From Chloroflexota bacterium (GTDB lineage: Bacteria > Chloroflexota > UBA11872 > VXOZ01), in the NCBI GenBank assembly GCA_022824225.1, contig JAJEAH010000048.1, positions 2,764-66,763 of the forward strand: 64,000 nt of DNA, given 5' to 3'. Position 1 is the stretch's first letter, and each line of letters begins with the position of its first letter. The notes beneath the pieces were generated by a model. The model did no database searches. It had not been told where the DNA came from and saw only the letters and a program-made list of their open reading frames with translations. Of the stretch, positions 3,051 to 12,619 are shown piece by piece. Position numbers and translations under genes: made by a program.

Positions 3051-3092
3051 GGAGTTATGGTGAGATTCTTTAACTATTATGGAGGATCTGTC

Positions 3093-3560
3093 ATGGAACA
3101 CGACGCCAGAAGCGTCGCTAACGAGTTCATCCGACGTGGTAAAGACGTTGGCAAACCCCTCACGCCTTTGCAGGTTCAGAAGCTAGTGTATTTTGCTCAT
3201 GCTTGGATGCTAGGTATCTACCGCCGTCCGTTGATCAATGAGCCCTTTGAAGTTTGGAAGTACGGCCCGGTTGTGCCAGTAGTATATTACTGCCTTCGGC
3301 ACTACGGCGGCGACCCAGTGACCGAAACCCTCCCAAATCACCCCGAGGACTTTGAGGACGAGTATGATTCTGCCGAGAATGACATCATCGACCAAGTCTT
3401 TCAAATATACGGGGGCCTTAGTGGAGGGCAGCTAATCACTCTAACCCACATGAAAGGCACGCCTTGGCATCAAGCAAAGAAGAAAGGGAATTGGTATATC
3501 CCTGACGACATGATTCGACGATTCTTCGCTGCTAAGGCGGAAGAGGCACGCCGTGAGTGA
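3093..3560 (+). CDS. Panacea-domain (DUF4065/SocA/GepA-like) antitoxin
   Basis: VAN.FI...LTPLQVQKLVYFAHAW.L...PLI.E.FEVWKYGPVVP..Y...L..LTH..GTPW signature; GGAGG SD at 3081-3085; alternative (leaderless) ATG at 3057. Confidence 0.92.
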   Translation: MEHDARSVANEFIRRGKDVGKPLTPLQVQKLVYFAHAWMLGIYRRPLINEPFEVWKYGPVVPVVYYCLRHYGGDPVTETLPNHPEDFEDEYDSAENDIIDQVFQIYGGLSGGQLITLTHMKGTPWHQAKKKGNWYIPDDMIRRFFAAKAEEARRE

Positions 3561-4132: not shown

Positions 4133-7100
4133 CTACAGCCGCCGGTTGGAGATGACGGGTTCGGAGGCGAGGAGGTGGCGGAGGGTGCTGAGGTTGGGGA
4201 GATCAAGGATGTGGGTGAGGCCGTCGTCGAGGGCTTGACGGGCGGGGCAGTGGGCCATGCCGGGGAGCCGCTCGAATTCGGCGGTGGCGAGTGTGTCGAA
4301 GAGGCGGGAGAGGGATTGAAGCTGGGAGGCGGGGAGACGGCGGGGGTCGAGGACGGGCAGGTTTGCGAGGTCAGCCTTTTTCAGTGCAACCCAGCCTCCT
4401 CTTGTGCTAGTCCGCTGGGCCAGTATTGTCAGCAAGCCCAAGCTGGAGTTCATCCAAGCAACCAGCGCCTTCTCCATGGCCTCGGCTTCAACGGTGACGG
4501 GCCACCACACGTTTGATAGAACTCGCACTTCCGACTGCATGGCAACAATCCTGGTCGTCTCTAGCCAAAGCCTCTCCGATATAAGGAGCCGACTAGATTG
4601 TTGCCAAAGGTGTTCACCATACCCTGGCCGCTGTCCGCCTCTTGGCTTTACTAGTGGCGAAAGATAGGCGTCAGGCGAACACGTCATGGTCTTTCTTTGC
4701 TCCGTGTCGTGACCTTCAACCATAGGATAGGCTGTAACCGAACTCGTCCTATCGAACCCATCAACCAGTCTCCGTCTGTCAGGGCCGATTTCACCAAGTT
4801 CCCGCAGTTTGCACAGCGGAATGCTGGCGGTTGACGGCTCGCCGGGGACCCAGACTTCTCCATCATCCAACAGGCGCGCGGCGCTCCTTAACACGTCGGC
4901 GCGGGCGAATTGGACGCCGAACCACTGCTTGCCGGCCAGGTCTGGTTCCGGGATGGAGACCACTTCGCCTACGTCCTGGCCGTCCACTCTCAGTAGCGCT
5001 GTGCCGGATTCTTCCAGTTCTGCCGGGGGCGTTTCGCTGACGGCCTGCGCGGCGCGGTGGGCGTCCACGATGCCGTCCGGGTTGTGCCAGAGGTTGACGA
5101 AGGTGGTGCGGGGTGAAGATGGGTGCTCGCCCCGTATCGCGTACGGGGCAGGCTTTTCGTGTGACTCGTCACTCCGGCGGAGGCCGGAGTCCAGGGCACG
5201 CGGAGAGGATGGATTCCCGCTTGCGCGGGAATGACGGTCACTTTCTGGTGCGCGGGAATGACGGTCTGCTCCTGGATTCCGGTTTTCACCGGAATGACGG
5301 ACTGCCTCTGGATTCCGGCTTTCGCCGGAATGACGGAACGAGGCGCCGGTATGACGGGTTGATGCGCTGGCGCGGCGCGTGGCGATGAGCAGGGCTTCCG
5401 AGAGGTCGGTGCTGTCCGAGAAGTTCCAGCGTTGGGGATCGTGGGACGCAATCACCATATCGAGGGTGAAGTCCTGCTCGATCAAGGCACGGGTCTGCGC
5501 CCAGGAGGGGCCGGTGCAGACGGTGAGCGGCAGCACCAAAGCCAGCCGTCCCTCGCCGGGGAGCAGGTTAGGCGAAACGGCCGCCACGAACGCCGCGCCG
5601 AGACCGGCGGTGGCGGAGGCCTGCCGCGACTTCAGGCGGCGCGCCAGTTCGTCCTGGAGCTTGCGCCGTTCTCCCGCCGGCAGACTGCCGAACAACAGAT
5701 TGCCGCCCACGGAGCGCGTAAACGGCGGATTCATGATCGCCAGGTCGAGCTTGGGCAGCGTGGCTTTCGCGCCTTCCGCCGTGCCGCGCGCGCCGCTGCC
5801 CGCCACCTGCGCCACGTCGCCGCTGGTCACGCCGGTTTCCTGCGGGGAGAGCGCGTGCTGCACCGGCGCTTCAGTCGTTCCCAGGAAGTCCAGCGAGCCG
5901 AGCGACACGCGCTCACTCTCCACGCCCAGGGGCATGACGTAGAGGTTCATGCGGTCGAACTGGATGTGCGGGTTGAGCATCGCGAGGCTGGTGGCGGCGA
6001 AGTGAATGGCGGAAAGCTGCACGTCGTAGCCGTGCAGGGCTTGTTCCACCATGGCCTTGTGCAGCGCGGCGGCGCGCTTGCCCCCAGCGGCTTTGTGGCG
6101 GCGTTCCGCTTCCGCAGCCACCGCCATGAGCAGCGTCCCGGTGCCGCAGGCCAAATCGGCTACGCTGAGGGAGCCAGGAAACGTGTGGTCGCGCCAGTCA
6201 ACGCCCGCCGGCCAGTTGTGAAAGACCAGCCGTGTCAGCAACGTGGCCGCGGGCACTGAGGTGTAGTACGCGCCAGTAAACTTGGCGTCGGACAAGAGGG
6301 TGTGGAAGAGCCGCCCCGAGAGGTCGTGGCCTTCCACGTTGCGCGTCTCCGCTACTGCCTTGACCAGGGGCAGGATGACGGGCGTGCGCACGTCGGCCGG
6401 CCCGTCCTCGAGCACCGCGAGAATCTCGGCCGCCAAGGCAAAGACCGGCACGTAGTCGATGGTGTCGCAGATGAAGCGCCAGGTTTGCCGCAGGCTGGGA
6501 ATGCCCTGCCGTGAGGCTTCGCGCACCGTTTTCACGTCATCGTTGACGGCGGCCAGGCGGTCCTGGAACGCCAGCGCGTTGAAAAGCGCCAGGCAACCGA
6601 TGCGCAGCGCGGCGGCGCGGTTCTTCTCCTGGTCGGTTTCGGCTATGAGGTCGGCAATGCGGCGGGTGATGCGCTCGTGTTTATCAAGCCGGTACACCGC
6701 TTGCTCCAGCGCGTAGCTGATGGATTGCGCGGCGGCTTCCACCTGGTCCGTGACCTGCAACTCCAGGGGCAAGGTGCGCAGGTGGTCGGCGAGATCGGCG
6801 ACGGAACCGGTCCGTATCTGGCGCGGCGCTTGCGGCGAAGCCTTGGCCATCTCGAGCAGCGTCGGCAACGTCGCCAGCCACCACTGGAGGTCAGCGGCTT
6901 TCTCCAGTTCCGCTTGGGTATCCTCCGCATGACGCAGCCGTTCGGGGTAGAGCACGCCGAGCACGGCGAGCGCCTCGGGAAAAGCGGCGCGGCGTTCCTG
7001 GAGTTGGGCCTCCAGAGAACTCTCCGAACCCTCCCACTTGCACTCCAAGAGGATCAGGCCGCTGCGCAAGTTTATGCGCACGTCGGGCGCGCCTCGCCGG

Positions 7101-7210
7101 CTGCGGCGCTCCGCCTTGGCCGGAACGCCGCGCTGCGAAAGCAGAAGGGCCAGGTGGACGTTTACTTCCTCTTCGCGCGTAGTCTCTGTTTCTTTTGCTC
7201 TGCTTGCCAT
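4133..7210 (-). CDS. Type IIG/IIL-like restriction-modification fusion (PD-(D/E)xK nuclease + gamma-class N6-adenine MTase + TRD) with in-frame repeat insertion
   Basis: N-terminal APDVRI...LLECKW; GAYYTS, motif I DLACGTGTLL and motif IV IMNPPF; TRD-like C-terminus (AWMNSSLG...DLANLPVLD); 1025 aa. Confidence 0.88.
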   Translation of the reverse strand: MASRAKETETTREEEVNVHLALLLSQRGVPAKAERRSRRGAPDVRINLRSGLILLECKWEGSESSLEAQLQERRAAFPEALAVLGVLYPERLRHAEDTQAELEKAADLQWWLATLPTLLEMAKASPQAPRQIRTGSVADLADHLRTLPLELQVTDQVEAAAQSISYALEQAVYRLDKHERITRRIADLIAETDQEKNRAAALRIGCLALFNALAFQDRLAAVNDDVKTVREASRQGIPSLRQTWRFICDTIDYVPVFALAAEILAVLEDGPADVRTPVILPLVKAVAETRNVEGHDLSGRLFHTLLSDAKFTGAYYTSVPAATLLTRLVFHNWPAGVDWRDHTFPGSLSVADLACGTGTLLMAVAAEAERRHKAAGGKRAAALHKAMVEQALHGYDVQLSAIHFAATSLAMLNPHIQFDRMNLYVMPLGVESERVSLGSLDFLGTTEAPVQHALSPQETGVTSGDVAQVAGSGARGTAEGAKATLPKLDLAIMNPPFTRSVGGNLLFGSLPAGERRKLQDELARRLKSRQASATAGLGAAFVAAVSPNLLPGEGRLALVLPLTVCTGPSWAQTRALIEQDFTLDMVIASHDPQRWNFSDSTDLSEALLIATRRASASTRHTGASFRHSGESRNPEAVRHSGENRNPGADRHSRAPESDRHSRASGNPSSPRALDSGLRRSDESHEKPAPYAIRGEHPSSPRTTFVNLWHNPDGIVDAHRAAQAVSETPPAELEESGTALLRVDGQDVGEVVSIPEPDLAGKQWFGVQFARADVLRSAARLLDDGEVWVPGEPSTASIPLCKLRELGEIGPDRRRLVDGFDRTSSVTAYPMVEGHDTEQRKTMTCSPDAYLSPLVKPRGGQRPGYGEHLWQQSSRLLISERLWLETTRIVAMQSEVRVLSNVWWPVTVEAEAMEKALVAWMNSSLGLLTILAQRTSTRGGWVALKKADLANLPVLDPRRLPASQLQSLSRLFDTLATAEFERLPGMAHCPARQALDDGLTHILDLPNLSTLRHLLASEPVISNRRL
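5129..5358. repeat. Cluster of dRS3/RPE-like palindromes (family A) inside the RM coding sequence
   Basis: Units at 5167-5194 (inverted), 5210-5237, ~5250-5264 (half), 5272-5300, 5308-5336 and ~5343-5358 (half), plus GCCCCGTATCGCGTACGGGGC at 5129-5149; translated as repeated RHSGESRNP-like peptides. Confidence 0.9.
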
Positions 7211-7439: not shown

Positions 7440-8255
7440 CTAGCACTTCGTCTTGAACAACCGCGCCAGGTTCTCGCCGAGGATTAGTTTCTTTTCCGCT
7501 TCGGTGATTGGGGACAGGAGCACGCGGCCGAGTTGGTAGGTGGCGCAGGTCCAGGGCATATCGGAGCCGTAGAGGATCTTGTTCGCGCCGGCGAGGCGCA
7601 CCATTTCGGTGAAGTCGCCGCGGTAGCCCACTGAAGCCGCGGTATCCAGGTAGACGTTCGGTTCTTCCGCCGCCACCTGCACCAGATCCAGGCTGCTCTT
7701 GGGACTGCCGCCGGCGGCGTGGGCCACGATGAAGTGGGCGCCGGGATATTCGCGGGCGATGCGGCGCAGCGTCGCGGGCGTGCCGGTGCCGTGGCTGATG
7801 AGGGGCAGGCGGTGGCGGTGGGCCAGCTCGAACGCGGGCACGTAGCCGGGGCCGTCGAAGGGATAATTGGCCGTGCCGGTATGCAGCTTGATGCCCACCG
7901 CGCCGGCATCCAAGCAGCGCTGCAACTCGTCCCGCACCAGGTCCGCCTCGTGGGGATCGGGCACGGCGTAGGCCAGCAAGCGGCCGGGGAACTGCCGCGC
8001 CGCCGCCAGCGAGATGTCGTTGCCTTCCCGCATGTCCAGCAAGATTGCCATAGAAGAAAAGACACACGCCTGGTCCATGCCCACGCGGTCCATGGTGCGC
8101 ACCATGCCCGCGGCGTCGTTGAAGGTCTGGTAGAAGAGCGCGGTGGGGCCCACGTGACAGTGGTTGTCGATGACCAGCGTGCCGTGGAGCGGCGTGCCGT
8201 CCAGGGCCTGTTCGCGAAGTGACGAGGTGGGTGCGGTGGGAGCGCCTGCTGCCAT
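7440..8255 (-). CDS. Amidohydrolase_2 family metal-dependent hydrolase
   Basis: IDNHCH, GIKLH, ISHG, IVAHA, NVYLDT and KILYGSDMP motifs; start reassigned to ATG 8255 (GAGG SD). Confidence 0.9.
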   Translation of the reverse strand: MAAGAPTAPTSSLREQALDGTPLHGTLVIDNHCHVGPTALFYQTFNDAAGMVRTMDRVGMDQACVFSSMAILLDMREGNDISLAAARQFPGRLLAYAVPDPHEADLVRDELQRCLDAGAVGIKLHTGTANYPFDGPGYVPAFELAHRHRLPLISHGTGTPATLRRIAREYPGAHFIVAHAAGGSPKSSLDLVQVAAEEPNVYLDTAASVGYRGDFTEMVRLAGANKILYGSDMPWTCATYQLGRVLLSPITEAEKKLILGENLARLFKTKC

Positions 8256-8347
8256 GGGTGCCTGCCTCACGTTCGTGGTGTGTGTTGGCTCGTCGCGGGG
8301 TTGCTGGCTATGATTATACCCCGCGGCGCGGCCAAACCGTCTGGGGT

Positions 8348-8741
8348 GGCGGCCCCCTGCGCGGGGAACGGCCTGGCTGAAGTCAACGTCGGCATACGCG
8401 CCAAAGGTGGCGGCCCCCTGCGCGGGGAACGGACGTCCGCTGCCGCCTCTGCGCCCGCCGCGTCGGCGCGGCAGTCCCATTCGCGCCGGACGACGCCCAT
8501 TCCGTCATTCCGGCGAAAGCCGGAATCCAGGGCAGCCCCATGCACGCGAGGCGGCGACAAGATCAAGGTGCTGCACGGCCTGCGCGCGCAAAGCAGCCCC
8601 ATGCACGCGAGGCAGTGACGCACTGCCGCCAGTGGGTCTTTGCCCCACCCCTGGCAGCCCCATGCACGCGAGGCGGCGACCTTGCTGCTCGTGCTGCTGA
8701 GCAAACGCTCAACGGCGGCCCCATGCACGAGACGCGCCGCC
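8348..8741. CRISPR. Degenerate orphan CRISPR-like array (type I-E-like geometry): 7 repeats of ~28 bp, 6 spacers of ~33 bp
   Basis: Repeat starts at 8348, 8409, 8470, 8531, 8592, 8653 and 8714 (exact 61-bp period). Copies 4 and 6 are identical (GGCAGCCCCATGCACGCGAGGCGGCGAC); copies 1-2 read CCGTTCCCCGCGCAGGGGG on the minus strand, resembling I-E repeats. No cas genes in the window. Confidence 0.6.
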
Positions 8742-8999
8742 AATCCGGCTGCGCCGCCCTCTTCCCCAGCGGCACGGAGCGCACCGGCGGCGCGCGCCAA
8801 GCGGTTTGTCTGCCGCCCTCCCGCTGTGCGCCGCATTCCCGCACGGGCCAAACTATGCGTCCGGCCCGCTCCGCCATCCGGCAGTTTCCACAGCGCTGAT
8901 TACCCTTCGTGGTACGATACACCGGTAAGTTCAATGCGCAGCGCATCCGCGAGTATAGCGCCAGTGGTCCCGCTGGCCGCCGCTCCCAAGAGGGATTCT

Positions 9000-10067
9000 A
9001 TGGAACGCACGAAAGACCCCTCGGAACACGCCAGAGAACCGACGACGCCGACACCAACGCCGCCACCGACGCGCGCCGAGAACCTGCAGGAGCGCACGCT
9101 CGACGCCGGCGAGTACGTGGCATCCCTGCCGGAACGCCTGGTGCGCAGCGCTGCCGCCGGGGCCGGCGGCCTGGTGCACGAGACCTCCGAGGTCGTGCTG
9201 CCGCCGCCGATACGCCACTCGCAACTCTATCAGTCCACCATCGGGCGCATGGTGCGCATAGTGGTGGAATTCGTAGGCGGCGTGTCAGGGCCGGAAGCGG
9301 CTGACGCGATGGCGATACAGGACCTCGCCGTGCGCAAGCTGGCCGGCAACGCGGTAGAGGTGGCGAGCGTGGTGGCCGTGGGGTGGTCGCCGCTCTGGAT
9401 GCTGGCGGCGGCGGCTGACGTCACCGGCGGCACACGGGCGTATTTGGACGCTTTCGTGAAAGAACTCGAAGACTCTCACGTGCTGCCGCCGGACGCCAAC
9501 GTTTCCTCCGTGGACGAACTGCTCGCCGCGCTGGGGAACACCTCCGGCCAAATGGCCGATACAATTGACATCCCGCCGCTGGCGCTCAATGACATGCGCA
9601 CGAGTTTGCAGGAATTTCGCAGCCACGCCGGGCAACTCCCCGACCCGCGCGACCTCACCCAGATATTCACGGAAATGAACCGCGCCGCGGCGGAACAGAA
9701 CCGCTCGCTGTTCACGGTTTCGTCGCTCGTCGCCGCCGGAGCGGTGCAGGCGGGCATCCAGCTTGGCAACGTGCATGTCTTTTCGTTTTATCGGGGCTCG
9801 CTGAGCACAATTCGCGCGGAAGGCGTGCCGGCATATCTGCAACGCATCAGCCAACCGTACCTGGAAGCCGCCGCGCTGCACCTGCGCCCCAGCAGCAGCA
9901 CCCACACCCAACGGCTCCTCCGGCGCTTTCTCACCCGGCGCTGGCGCAAACGCTCTGCCAACGAGGGCTCTCCCCCCGCAATAGAGGCGACAAAGACGGA
10001 CAGGCCGGAGGAATCCCGCGCCGGCGACCCCGAGGACGATACCACGCGCCAATCGCAAAGGCCATGA
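9000..10067 (+). CDS. Hypothetical, mostly helical protein
   Basis: Host-like codon usage from ATG 9000 (AAGAGGGA SD); the upstream extension in the ORF track runs through the repeat array and is probably spurious. Confidence 0.75.
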   Translation: MERTKDPSEHAREPTTPTPTPPPTRAENLQERTLDAGEYVASLPERLVRSAAAGAGGLVHETSEVVLPPPIRHSQLYQSTIGRMVRIVVEFVGGVSGPEAADAMAIQDLAVRKLAGNAVEVASVVAVGWSPLWMLAAAADVTGGTRAYLDAFVKELEDSHVLPPDANVSSVDELLAALGNTSGQMADTIDIPPLALNDMRTSLQEFRSHAGQLPDPRDLTQIFTEMNRAAAEQNRSLFTVSSLVAAGAVQAGIQLGNVHVFSFYRGSLSTIRAEGVPAYLQRISQPYLEAAALHLRPSSSTHTQRLLRRFLTRRWRKRSANEGSPPAIEATKTDRPEESRAGDPEDDTTRQSQRP

Positions 10068-11410: not shown

Positions 11411-12619
11411 ATGAGCGTCTTGGGCGGAAAGAACATCCTGCTTGGCGTGTGCGGCAGCATTGCCGCCTTCAAGGCGGTGGCGTTGGCCAGCCAGCTCAAC
11501 CAGGCCGGGGCGGCGGTCACTACTATTCTCACCAAAGACGCCGCGCGCTTCGTTACGCCGCTTTCGTTCACGAGCGTCACGCAGCGTCCGGCCTACATCG
11601 ACCTCTACACGCCCGATCCCGGCCGCATCTTGCACATTGCCCTGGCCGAGGAGGCCGACCTGCTGGCCGTCGTGCCCGCCACCGCACACACCCTGGGCCG
11701 CATGGCGCAGGGACTGGCCGACGATCTCCTGACCTGCACCGTTCTCAGCACACAAGCGCCGGTGCTCGTTGCTCCCGCCATGGACGGCGGCATGTTCACC
11801 AATCCCGCCACACAGCAGAATCTGGCGACTCTGCGGGAGCGGGGCGTGCACGTGGTGGAGCCGTTGGCCGGCAGGCTGGCGTCGGGTCTCGTGGCCCAGG
11901 GGCGGCTGCCGGAAGTGGATGCGCTCATCGCCGAAATGCGCGCCGTGCTCGGCAGCGGCGGCCCACTGGCGGGCAAGACGGTGGTCGTTACCGCGGGCGG
12001 CACGCAGGAGCCGCTGGACCCCGTGCGCTACATCGGCAACCGCTCCAGCGGCAAGATGGGATTCGCCCTGGCGGAGGCGGCCAGAGACTACGGGGCGCGG
12101 GTGATACTCATCACAGGCGCCACCACCGCGCCGCCGCCCCACGGCATGGAAACAGTTTCCGCAACCACGGCCGCCGCCATGCAGGCCGCGGTCAACGAAC
12201 ACACCGCCCAGGCGGATGCGCTGATCATGGCCGCGGCAGTCGCCGACTACCGGCCCCAGACTGCCCAGGGCCAAAAGACGAAACGCACCGGCGATTCGCT
12301 TGCCCTTACCCTGGTTGAGAACGAGGACATTCTGGCCCAAGTCCCGCACACCCTCGTGAAAGTCGGCTTCGCCGCCGAGACCGAGCACATGATAGAGCAT
12401 GCGGAGAGCAAACTCACGCGCAAGAGCGCGGACCTCATCGTCGCCAATGATGTGTCTCGAGCCGACAGCGGCTTTGGCACGGACACGAACCAGGTGGTGA
12501 TCCTGAGCAGAGATAGACCCCCGGAGTCGCTGCCGGTGCTCGCCAAGACCGAGGTCGCCGAGACCATCCTGCAACGTGTGGCAGCCCTCCTCCGGCACGG
12601 GGCCGGCCGTTCGTGCTGA
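11411..12619 (+). CDS. coaBC: Bifunctional phosphopantothenoylcysteine decarboxylase/phosphopantothenate-cysteine ligase
   Basis: GSIAAFK, PATAHTL, APAMD, TAGGTQEPLDPVRYIGNRSSGKMG, AAVADY, VGFAAET and IVANDV motifs. Confidence 0.97.
   Translation: MSVLGGKNILLGVCGSIAAFKAVALASQLNQAGAAVTTILTKDAARFVTPLSFTSVTQRPAYIDLYTPDPGRILHIALAEEADLLAVVPATAHTLGRMAQGLADDLLTCTVLSTQAPVLVAPAMDGGMFTNPATQQNLATLRERGVHVVEPLAGRLASGLVAQGRLPEVDALIAEMRAVLGSGGPLAGKTVVVTAGGTQEPLDPVRYIGNRSSGKMGFALAEAARDYGARVILITGATTAPPPHGMETVSATTAAAMQAAVNEHTAQADALIMAAAVADYRPQTAQGQKTKRTGDSLALTLVENEDILAQVPHTLVKVGFAAETEHMIEHAESKLTRKSADLIVANDVSRADSGFGTDTNQVVILSRDRPPESLPVLAKTEVAETILQRVAALLRHGAGRSC

What the first reader, a model, noticed from the sequence alone, without database searches (positions are those of the whole stretch)
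8348..8741. Cas-less, strongly drifted CRISPR-like array with an exact 61-bp period
Seen: seven related ~28-bp units start at 8348, 8409, 8470, 8531, 8592, 8653 and 8714, with no indel in the register, separated by six different ~33-bp segments. The repeats form two sub-types: copies 1-2 (GGCGGCCCCCTGCGCGGGGAACGG) and copies 4-6 (GGCAGCCCCATGCACGCGAGGCGGCGAC consensus); copies 3 and 7 are decayed (copy 3 matches copy 4 at 20/28). The period is not a multiple of 3, so this is not a protein repeat. Known: type I-E arrays have 28-29 + 32-33 = 61-bp units and a GTTCCCCGC...GGGG stem, which copies 1-2 resemble on the minus strand. Inference: an orphan array whose repeat sequence changed mid-array while unit length was conserved; it is either a relic or a repurposed guide/regulatory RNA locus between two divergent genes. 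Standard finders may miss part of it. Caveat: spacers 2 and 5 share CTGCCGCC in register, so an old tandem duplication is not excluded.
Basis: partly seen in the sequence, partly recalled or inferred. Interest (0 to 1): 0.8.

Follow-up and report, generated by a model that had tools for sequence, protein, structure and literature searches.

The report
Decayed orphan type I-E CRISPR array
This is a real but worn-out CRISPR array of the type I-E kind in a sponge-associated Chloroflexota genome that has lost most of its CRISPR genes, so it is a relic of a known immune system and not a new one.

Summary
Seven 28-nt units start at 8348 + 61n with no indel. Six unrelated 33-nt spacers separate them.

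The best reading is a product of type I-E spacer integration, read on the + strand, with the leader side at 8348 and the trailer at 8741.

- **Period.** A same-genus genome (G009) has a complete I-E operon and a 38-repeat array with the same 28+33 = 61 unit.
- **Repeat likeness.** That repeat matches copies 4 and 6 here at 17 of 28 in register (p about 3e-4 in register, 0.009 over any offset or strand).
- **Unit variation.** Related strains in other samples carry one extra 61-nt unit and a different first spacer.

The genome is not Cas-less. Another contig keeps an intact solo cas3 followed by four full and one partial canonical I-E repeats. No Cascade, cas1 or cas2 genes were found.

The window repeats have lost the repeat hairpin, and there is no leader of the array's own. 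Spacer 3 is a copy of a host REP element.

Copies are identical to each other yet 11 of 28 from the canonical repeat. Spacers were therefore added when the repeat was already aberrant, so a 'neo-CRISPR' origin is not excluded.

A word search of the scan's earlier notes found no such array on other DNA.

The parts
7440..8255 (-). Left flanking gene, Amidohydro_2 family. It is kept by all 16 same-genus relatives.
   Evidence: Pfam PF04909, E 1.1e-26. blastn identity 81-86% in 16 of 16 genus genomes.
8256..8347 (+). Leader-side flank. It is orthologous to the amidohydrolase upstream region of relatives that lack the array. It holds a conserved GATTATAC box (TATAAT on the - strand) and one promoter-like site on the + strand (8285-8314) that points into the array.
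   Evidence: The alignment with 8 relatives keeps invariant columns up to position 85 of the stretch, window 8340. Promoter scan: 1 site against 0.1 expected.
8348..8375 (+). Repeat copy 1, sub-type A. The identical stretch shared with copy 2 runs 8345-8371.
8376..8408 (+). Spacer 1. In the strains of runs X2 and X3 a different sequence of the same length stands here.
   Evidence: table 3: at least 18 of the positions 8377-8405 differ, while copies 1 and 2 are kept.
8409..8436 (+). Repeat copy 2, sub-type A.
8437..8469 (+). Spacer 2. It is shared with X2 and X3, with 7 listed differences.
   Evidence: table 3.
8470..8497 (+). Repeat copy 3, a decayed B type (20 of 28 to copy 4).
8498..8530 (+). 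Spacer 3: 3 nt followed by a full 30-nt host REP element (8501-8530).
   Evidence: 78 copies of the REP core in the own genome. The REP consensus spans exactly 8501-8530 and does not reach copy 3. There are hundreds of matches across the class.
8531..8558 (+). Repeat copy 4, sub-type B. It matches the G009 type I-E repeat at 17 of 28 in register.
8559..8591 (+). Spacer 4. In X2 and X3 an extra unit (B repeat plus a unique 33-nt spacer) stands before it.
   Evidence: tables 5c and 8.
8592..8619 (+). Repeat copy 5, sub-type B with 3 private changes.
8620..8652 (+). Spacer 5.
8653..8680 (+). Repeat copy 6, identical to copy 4.
8681..8713 (+). Spacer 6.
8714..8741 (+). Repeat copy 7, the terminal repeat. 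Its first 16 nt match B at 15 of 16; its last 12 nt match at 8 of 12.
   Evidence: The G009 terminal repeat shows the same pattern.
8742..8905 (.). Unique GC-rich tail (72% G+C) between the array and the conserved promoter-like box before the right-hand gene. It has no counterpart in relatives or elsewhere in the genome.
9000..10067 (+). Right flanking gene, a 355-aa ORF without a Pfam match. It is kept by same-genus relatives.

Best explanation
The array was written by a type I-E adaptation complex (Cas1-Cas2). That complex inserts a 33-bp spacer and copies a 28-bp repeat at the leader end, which gives the rigid 61-bp unit.

The array reads on the + strand: the leader side is at about 8340 and the terminal repeat is at 8714-8741.

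It is now an orphan relic. The genome's I-E system is being dismantled: an intact cas3 and a few canonical repeats survive on another contig, and cse1, cse2, cas7, cas5, cas6e, cas1 and cas2 were not found.

The repeats here no longer form the hairpin that Cas6e cuts, so the array most probably yields no working crRNA.

Spacer 3 was taken from the host's own REP family.

**Shown:** the architecture, the unrelated spacers, the likeness to the genus's I-E repeat, unit-wise variation between strains, the solo cas3, and the loss of the hairpin.

**Inferred:**
- Cas1-Cas2 wrote the array.
- The last spacers were added when the repeat was already aberrant. Copies 4 and 6 are identical, and copies 1 and 2 are identical over 27 nt, yet both types are 11 or more of 28 away from the canonical repeat.
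- The REP-derived self spacer may have favoured loss of the interference genes.
For: 1. Exact 61-bp register over 7 units, with spacers no more alike than shuffles.
2. Of the 30 I-E cas2 loci examined from 30 of 401 phylum genomes with a match, 27 hold an array. Their periods are 61 (22 loci), 62 (4) and 63 (1).
3. G009, of the same genus, has cas3-cse1-cse2-cas7-cas5-cas6e-cas1-cas2 followed by 37 canonical repeats and 1 terminal repeat, built as 28+33.
4. Copies 4 and 6 match the genus-type repeat at 17 of 28 in register on the + strand. Own-genome null: 0.03% of 28-mers in register and 0.9% of 40-mers over any offset or strand reach that count. Copy 1 also reaches 17, at an offset of 2.
5. 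The core CCCCNTGCACGCGNGG occurs exactly only in this array (3 times), in the G009 array (37 times) and once as a singleton, across 17 genus genomes.
6. The own genome has a full-length cas3 of 865 aa with HD, helicase and Cas3 C-terminal domains, 62% identical to that of G009. It is followed by a partial repeat and four full canonical repeats spaced 61 apart within each of two pairs. One of them is identical to the repeat of another I-E locus in the phylum.
7. Contigs of two other samples carry the array with one extra unit of exactly 28+33 nt after copy 4. They also carry a different spacer 1 of the same length.
8. The array is absent at this site in the 11 same-genus relatives inspected of 16. 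No blastn match to it was found in any of 40 relatives, apart from the REP.
9. The REP consensus (30 nt, 78 genomic copies) fits inside spacer 3 without disturbing the register.
Against: - The repeats fold no better than shuffles on either strand (z +0.5 and 0.0 for type B, +0.7 and +0.1 for type A). The canonical repeats of G009 and C47 give z -2.2 and -3.3.
- There is no leader of the array's own and no AT-rich flank. The sequence up to about 8340 is orthologous to relatives that lack the array.
- No cas gene lies in the first 22.5 kb of the window.
- Cas1 and I-E Cas2 were not found in the genome, which is 95% complete in 87 contigs, so absence is not proven.
- Sequence likeness to I-E repeats is moderate. 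The repeat core is nearly palindromic, so the minus strand also gives 12-14 of 28.
- No spacer has a convincing match in phage records, in 40 relatives or in the own genome, except the REP.
- Two repeat sub-types that differ at 10 of 28 within one array are not explained by simple copying at the leader end.
- The genome holds many REP tandem arrays, some with periods near 61.
Confidence: 0.75

Rival explanations
1. Neo-CRISPR origin. The array never was a canonical I-E array. It was born at this spot when the lineage's I-E Cas1-Cas2 integrated spacers off-target into a repeat-like sequence next to the amidohydrolase promoter, copying 28 bp of local sequence each time. This shares the integration mechanism with the best explanation and differs only in origin.
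For: - Copies are identical to each other (4 = 6; 1 = 2 over 27 nt) although they are 11 of 28 or more from the canonical repeat. By contrast, the four residual canonical repeats on C47 differ from their best copy at 0, 2, 4 and 5 scattered positions.
- The array has no leader of its own. It starts within about 8 nt of sequence shared with array-less relatives.
- There is no repeat hairpin.
- It is confined to this species at a site that its relatives fill with other insertions.
- Off-target integration that spawns new arrays is reported for E. coli by Nivala et al. 2018. I saw this only as passages in citing papers: 10.1101/148544 and PMC6698737.
Against: - Six successive integrations at a non-canonical site would be needed.
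- No single-copy 'proto-repeat' is visible at the site in 11 relatives, although REP insertions have reshaped that stretch.
- The two sub-types within one array still need an extra event.
- The 17 of 28 likeness to the canonical repeat is also what a decayed canonical repeat would show.
Confidence: 0.3
2. Not CRISPR-derived. The array is a spaced cluster of protein-binding sites, or a REP- or minisatellite-type array, made by duplication of a 61-bp unit.
For: - The genome is full of REP tandem arrays, several with periods of 56-62.
- The array lies in an intergenic stretch that relatives fill with REP and MITE copies.
- No hairpin, no leader, no adjacent cas genes.
Against: - The spacers show no residual likeness, and Tandem Repeats Finder finds nothing. 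Yet the array is confined to one species, which is too young for duplicated halves to have randomised.
- The repeats occur nowhere else in the genome, nor in 97 other genomes of the class.
- They show only chance likeness to the main REP family: 12-15 of 27, with 53% of null samples at 13 or more.
- The REP arrays of this genome have similar 'spacers' or uneven periods.
- The extra unit in other strains is exactly 28+33 nt with a unique 33-nt insert.
Confidence: 0.1
3. A working, repurposed RNA locus. The degenerate array is kept because its transcript acts as a guide or regulator, like the degenerate mini-arrays that steer Cascade onto cas promoters or the Listeria orphan array.
For: - A promoter-like site on the + strand (8285-8314) points into the array.
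- Copies 4 and 6 are kept identical.
- Degenerate regulatory mini-arrays are known from I-E loci, according to earlier notes of this scan on other genomes. I did not read the papers those notes name.
Against: - No Cascade genes were found to use such an RNA.
- No spacer matches cas genes or cas promoter regions in the 324,780 bases of cas loci held. The best matches are 12-13 nt.
- Folding is no better than shuffles.
- The array varies between strains by unit loss, spacer replacement and many substitutions, while the flanking gene is nearly unchanged.
- It is absent from all other species examined.
Confidence: 0.05

Closest known systems
Canonical type I-E CRISPR array (here: G009 of the same genus, locus L031; E. 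coli K-12 CRISPR arrays recalled)
   Same: 28-nt repeat plus 33-nt spacer gives a 61-bp unit. Spacers are unique. The terminal repeat decays in its 3' part. The repeat core CCCC.TGCACGCG.GG sits in the same register.
   Different: 11 of 28 repeat positions differ. The 6-bp stem is broken at two pairs. The 3' handle part (ATAGACC) is replaced. There is no leader and no adjacent cas operon. Two repeat sub-types share one array.
Orphan CRISPR arrays left after loss of cas genes (E. coli I-F orphan arrays; Lactobacillus acidophilus NCFM with self-targeting spacers and a deleted cas cassette), as described in passages of PMC8616872 and PMC6990116
   Same: An array survives without its interference and adaptation genes. 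A self-matching spacer is present. Degeneration of the system fits what those reviews describe.
   Different: Here cas3 survives intact on another contig. The spacers do not match cas genes, so there are no 'anti-cas' spacers. The repeats are far more drifted than in those examples, as far as I recall them.
Neo-CRISPR arrays from off-target Cas1-Cas2 integration (Nivala, Shipman and Church 2018, Nat Microbiol 3:310). The paper itself is not held; I saw it only through citing passages.
   Same: The repeats are unlike the canonical one but are copied exactly. The I-E ruler length is kept. There is no native leader and the site is an ordinary intergenic region.
   Different: Those events were seen under Cas1-Cas2 overproduction in E. 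coli. Whether they reach six spacers in nature is not known to me. No proto-repeat could be shown here.
Cas-regulating degenerate mini-arrays of I-E loci (CreR type), known to me from earlier notes of this scan on other genomes; papers not read
   Same: Degenerate I-E-like repeats.
   Different: Those have two repeats and one spacer, lie between cas3 and cse1, and match the cas promoter. This array has seven repeats, lies far from cas3, and has no such match. G009 has no repeat-like element within 10 mismatches in its cas3-cse1 spacer.

Membership tests
CRISPR array, type I-E | Regular units of about 28-29 nt repeat plus 32-33 nt spacer (61 bp) | tested here: met
   Seven units at exactly 61. 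Benchmark: 27 I-E arrays of the phylum with periods 61 (22), 62 (4) and 63 (1).
CRISPR array, type I-E | Spacers unrelated to one another | tested here: met
   Mean in-register identity 8.6 of 33 against shuffles at 9.05 +/- 0.63. No Tandem Repeats Finder array.
CRISPR array, type I-E | Repeat sequence of the I-E repeat family | tested here: inconclusive
   17 of 28 to the genus-type repeat. p about 3e-4 in register and 0.009 over any offset or strand. The 3' handle is not kept. Rfam gave no hit, but it also misses the true G009 array, so that says nothing.
CRISPR array, type I-E | Repeat forms the stable hairpin cut by Cas6e | tested here: not met
   z +0.5, 0.0, +0.7 and +0.1 for window repeats on both strands, against -2.2 and -3.3 for canonical repeats.
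CRISPR array, type I-E | Leader next to the first repeat | tested here: not met
   The flank up to about 8340 is shared with array-less relatives. There is no AT-rich flank: 65% and 72% G+C. Leaders of true I-E loci here are not alike either, so likeness could not be used as a test.
CRISPR array, type I-E | Cognate cas genes in the genome | tested here: inconclusive
   cas3 is present and intact. cse1, cse2, cas7, cas5, cas6e, cas1 and cas2 were not found by tblastn at E below 1. Cas1 and I-E Cas2 families were not found. The genome is 95% complete.
CRISPR array, type I-E | Strain-to-strain change by whole repeat-spacer units, polar towards the leader | tested here: met
   There is an extra 61-nt unit and a replaced first spacer in contigs of runs X2 and X3, while the trailer-side units are shared. 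Differential loss from a longer ancestral array would give the same picture.
CRISPR array, type I-E | Spacers match mobile elements with a shared PAM | tested here: not met
   Phage records: best E-value 0.4. 40 relatives and the own genome: only the REP match of spacer 3. IMG/VR was not scanned with the spacers.
CRISPR array, type I-E | Processed crRNAs of about 61 nt | not testable with these tools
   Only assembled RNA contigs were on hand.
Neo-CRISPR (off-target Cas1-Cas2 integration) | A single-copy proto-repeat at the same site in genomes without the array | tested here: inconclusive
   None was seen in the 11 relatives inspected, but that stretch is replaced by other insertions in each of them.
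REP / BIME-type repeat cluster | The same unit dispersed at many sites of the genome | tested here: not met
   Both repeat types occur only here. The B type is absent from 97 other class genomes. Likeness to the main REP family is at chance level.
Minisatellite / tandem duplication | Whole units, spacer halves included, related by descent | tested here: not met
Cas-regulating mini-array (CreR / CreTA type) | Two degenerate repeats inside the cas locus, with a spacer that matches a cas promoter | tested here: not met
   There are seven repeats, on another contig than cas3. No spacer match longer than 13 nt in 324,780 bases of cas loci.

The most novel reading that the evidence does not exclude
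A natural neo-CRISPR array. The lineage's type I-E Cas1-Cas2 repeatedly integrated spacers, one of them a host REP element, off-target into a repeat-like sequence beside a housekeeping promoter. This built a six-spacer array whose repeats never supported crRNA processing. If so, it would be a field example of how new CRISPR arrays are born, caught in a genome that then lost Cascade, cas1 and cas2.
Probability: 0.3. Interest if true: 0.65.

Novelty: new member of a known kind. Interest (0 to 1): 0.4.

Why it matters
Orphan and degenerate CRISPR arrays are well known, so the main finding is ordinary. Three points give it some value.

1. It shows a type I-E system caught in the middle of its dismantling in an uncultured sponge-associated Chloroflexota lineage: an intact solo cas3, a residual canonical array, and a second aberrant array. 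Only 1 of 16 sister species searched keeps the whole system.
2. The repeats are far from canonical yet copied exactly. This implies that spacer integration went on with a repeat that cannot make the Cas6e hairpin. That bears on how tolerant I-E integration is, and on whether new arrays arise off-target in nature.
3. One spacer is a copy of a host REP element present in 78 copies. That is a plausible cause of autoimmunity and of the loss of the interference genes.

Standard CRISPR finders would probably miss the array or split it.

Tried and rejected
- **Rfam scan.** The scan of 7800-9400 at E up to 10 gave no CRISPR family. The same scan misses the true G009 array, so it says nothing.
- **Leader comparison.** I compared both flanks with four true I-E leaders. 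Scores sat at shuffle level, and the true leaders are not alike among themselves either, apart from the near-identical L078/L080 pair.
- **Anti-cas or cas-promoter spacers.** None found.
- **Descent from the main REP family.** Ungapped identity is at chance level. A short gapped likeness of the 3' part of copies 1-2 to the REP end, seen in alignment A1, is post hoc and was dropped.
- **Exact 20-mer of the B repeat in public contigs.** There were 4 hits in metagenome contigs and 4 in species genomes. All 8 are single copies with no repeat at the 61-nt steps on either side, most of them looking like ordinary coding DNA.
- **Phage records.** Only 22-25-nt matches at E 0.4 to the GC-rich spacer 2.
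- **RNA run X6.** Its contigs lie on 7980-8134, on the REP at 8496-8535 (with loose ends, so from other loci) and on 8950-9032, and none on the rest of the array. These are assembled contigs, so this shows neither transcription nor silence.
- **Genome-wide scan for lag 60-62 periodicity.** It found 17 places. The 7 other places I read at lag 61 are REP-type arrays with similar inter-repeat parts or uneven periods, or show no clear array.
- **My first k-mer scan for arrays** missed the C47 residual repeats.
- **Regulatory mini-array between cas3 and cse1 in G009.** None within 10 mismatches. Whether the first two C47 repeats are such an element or part of the old main array is open.
- **Nivala et al. 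2018** could not be read.
- **Not tried:** the spacers were not scanned against IMG/VR contigs.

Full report
**1. The observation**

The region 8348-8741 holds seven related 28-nt units that start every 61 nt without any indel.

- Self-identity of 8340-8745 peaks at lag 61 (0.507) and lag 122 (0.482). The mean over lags 20-129 is 0.296 with sd 0.035.
- Copies 4 and 6 are identical. Copy 5 differs from them at 3 positions, copy 7 at 5 and copy 3 at 8.
- Copies 1 and 2 share an identical 27-mer (8345-8371 and 8406-8432) and match copies 4-6 at only 15-18 of 28.
- The six 33-nt spacers are no more alike in register than shuffles: 8.6 against 9.05 +/- 0.63 of 33.
- Tandem Repeats Finder sees no array here.
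- The array lies in a 744-nt spacer between a divergent Amidohydro_2 gene (7440-8255, -) and a 355-aa ORF without a Pfam match (9000-10067, +).
- 61 is not a multiple of 3, and the ORF that crosses the array has no Pfam match.

**2. Where the array occurs**

- Both repeat types occur only at this locus in the 3.37-Mb genome, which is in 87 contigs and 95% complete.
- The B type is in none of 97 other genomes of the class at up to 3 mismatches.
- An exact 20-mer of the B type gives only 8 single, unrelated hits in public metagenome and genome contigs, none in an array.
- All 16 same-genus genomes keep both flanking genes. None shows a blastn match to the array, apart from the REP described in section 5.
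- In the 11 relatives whose spacer I read, only two promoter-like ends are conserved. The middle is filled with different REP or MITE copies.
- Homology with the relatives runs up to about 8340, within about 8 nt of the first repeat.

**3. The link to type I-E**

- One same-genus genome, G009, has cas3-cse1-cse2-cas7-cas5-cas6e-cas1-cas2.
- That operon is followed, in the same direction, by 37 canonical repeats and one terminal repeat. The repeat is 28 nt and the spacers are 33 nt, with period 61 (62 once). The terminal repeat decays in its 3' part.
- In a sample of 401 genomes of the phylum, 30 have an I-E cas2. Of the 30 loci examined, 27 hold an array, with periods 61 (22), 62 (4) and 63 (1).
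- On the + strand and in register, copies 4 and 6 match the G009 repeat at 17 of 28. The core CCCC.TGCACGCG.GG matches at 14 of 16.
- Random 28-mers of the own genome reach 17 in register in 0.03% of draws. 40-mers reach it at any offset or strand in 0.9% of draws.
- Copy 1 also reaches 17, at an offset of 2.
- With no mismatch, the core motif occurs in 17 genus genomes only in this array (3 times), in the G009 array (37 times) and once elsewhere.
- Likeness to the genome's main REP family is at chance level.

**4. The genome is not Cas-less**

- tblastn with the eight G009 Cas proteins finds a full-length cas3 on contig C47, 60% identical over 886 aligned positions, and nothing else at E below 1.
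- The ORF is intact at 865 aa, with HD, helicase and Cas3 C-terminal domains.
- It is one of only two cas3 genes in the 17 genus genomes.
- About 160 nt after its stop codon come the 3' half of a repeat and then full repeats at L041:11147 and 11208.
- A roughly 600-nt stretch follows that holds a Phage_VG64-family gene. Two more repeats follow at 11844 and 11905.
- These four repeats differ from the best copy at 2, 5, 4 and 0 positions.
- That best copy is identical to the repeat of another I-E locus of the phylum.
- A tRNA-Gln gene follows.
- Cas1 (PF01867) and I-E Cas2 (PF09707) were not found in the genome.
- The simplest reading is a deletion from the cas3-cse1 spacer into the main array. 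The window array is then a second array of the same, now crippled, system.

**5. Orientation, spacer 3 and strains**

Three lines favour the + strand.

- Copies 3-7 match the canonical repeat better on + (15-17 of 28) than on - (12-14).
- Copy 7 keeps its 5' part and decays in its 3' part, like the G009 terminal repeat.
- Strains differ at the 8348 end and agree at the 8741 end.

A promoter-like site on the + strand (8285-8314) points into the array.

Spacer 3 is 3 nt followed by a complete 30-nt REP element. The REP has 78 copies in this genome, and its consensus ends exactly at the spacer's end. A REP that had inserted on its own would have broken the 61-nt register. Capture of a 33-nt piece of host DNA by the integrase is therefore the simplest account. 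This step is inferred.

Runs labelled sponge metagenome, from two studies, hold parts of the stretch. Contigs of X2 and X3 show the following:

- One extra unit after copy 4, made of a B repeat and a unique 33-nt spacer.
- A different sequence of the same length in place of spacer 1, with at least 18 of the positions 8377-8405 changed.
- Seven changes in spacer 2.
- Two changes (X3) or six changes (X2, counting the one at 8345) in copy 1.
- Only a few changes in the flanking gene.

Unit-wise change is what CRISPR arrays do. Differential loss from a longer ancestral array would explain it as well as new acquisition would.

**6. State and origin**

- The canonical repeats of G009 and C47 fold into a 6-bp stem with a tetraloop (z -2.2 and -3.3).
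- The window repeats fold no better than shuffles on either strand. In type B, two G-to-A changes break two stem pairs.
- With no Cascade and no Cas6e found, the array most probably makes no working crRNA.
- Copies 4 and 6 are identical, and copies 1 and 2 are identical over 27 nt, while both types are 11 or more of 28 from the canonical repeat. Independent decay of canonical copies cannot give that, and the C47 repeats show what scattered decay looks like.
- The repeats must therefore have been copied in their aberrant form.
- The known process that copies a repeat while inserting a unique spacer is Cas1-Cas2 integration.
- Either a secondary array went on acquiring spacers after its first repeat had drifted, or the array arose off-target at a repeat-like site. 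The second is a 'neo-CRISPR', reported for E. coli by Nivala et al. 2018, which I could see only through citing passages (the paper is not held).
- The lack of a leader of its own and of a hairpin favours the second reading.
- The need for six integrations at one site, and the two sub-types in one array, weigh against it.
- I could not find a proto-repeat in relatives.

**7. Comparison with what is known**

- Orphan arrays and degenerating CRISPR-Cas loci are described in passages of PMC8616872.
- Loss of cas genes in genomes with self-targeting spacers is described in passages of PMC6990116.
- The spacers here do not target cas genes.
- Regulatory mini-arrays of I-E loci, noted by this scan in other genomes, have two repeats inside the cas locus and a promoter-matching spacer. 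That does not fit this array.
- The scan's earlier notes on this genome describe its REP families and name it a Chloroflexota genome.

**Verdict**

The array is real. It is CRISPR-derived of the I-E kind with confidence of about 0.75, and it is an orphan relic. I class it as a new member of a known kind, of moderate interest, with an open and testable possibility that it is a natural neo-CRISPR array.

Noticed in passing
G000 contig C47:16341-18938 (L041:8342-10939) and L041:11103-11932: An intact solo cas3 is followed by a partial repeat and four full canonical I-E repeats. No Cascade, cas1 or cas2 genes are present. This looks like a deletion from the cas3-cse1 spacer into the array.
   Followed up: yes
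L041:11339-11794 (+): A 151-aa gene of the Phage_VG64 family (Pfam E 5e-53) sits between the second and third residual repeats. It is an insertion into the old array.
   Followed up: partly
L041:12157-12230 (-) and L041:12380-12640: A tRNA-Gln(CTG) gene lies just beyond the residual array. A run of short tandem and REP-like repeats follows it.
   Followed up: partly
Own genome, e.g. C4:76194-76734, C30:6754-7329, C31:67935-68293, C73:6673-7055, C19:3037-3403: There are dozens of tandem arrays of REP-type hairpin repeats (CCGTTCGCGCTGAGCCTGTCGAAGCGC family and others), some with periods near 61. The scan's earlier notes on this genome already describe this landscape.
   Followed up: partly
window 9045-9072, and 9047 in run X2: A 12-nt tandem repeat lies near the start of the downstream ORF (Thr/Pro-rich). 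One strain carries an 18-nt in-frame insertion there.
   Followed up: no
window 4133-7210 (-): A 1025-aa ORF without any Pfam match. I have not checked whether it is a real gene or a GC-rich spurious frame.
   Followed up: no
window 3057-3560 (+): A 167-aa ORF with a SocA/Panacea antitoxin domain (Pfam E 6e-21).
   Followed up: no
L033-L040 (class relatives G029, G034, G068, G071, G020, G059, G077, G045): Arrays of 65-66-bp period with a roughly 36-nt repeat ending in CATCGGCTAAACT lie near Cas1 genes of 304-371 aa. This is a different CRISPR type, common in sister families.
   Followed up: no
L031:13146-13613 and G000 C74:68351-68838 (L042:4351-4838): The gene just downstream of the G009 array has a homolog (about 69% at protein level) near the end of the window's own contig, about 57 kb from the window array. 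A further weaker DNA match lies on C58. I do not know whether this reflects old synteny or a multi-copy gene.
   Followed up: no
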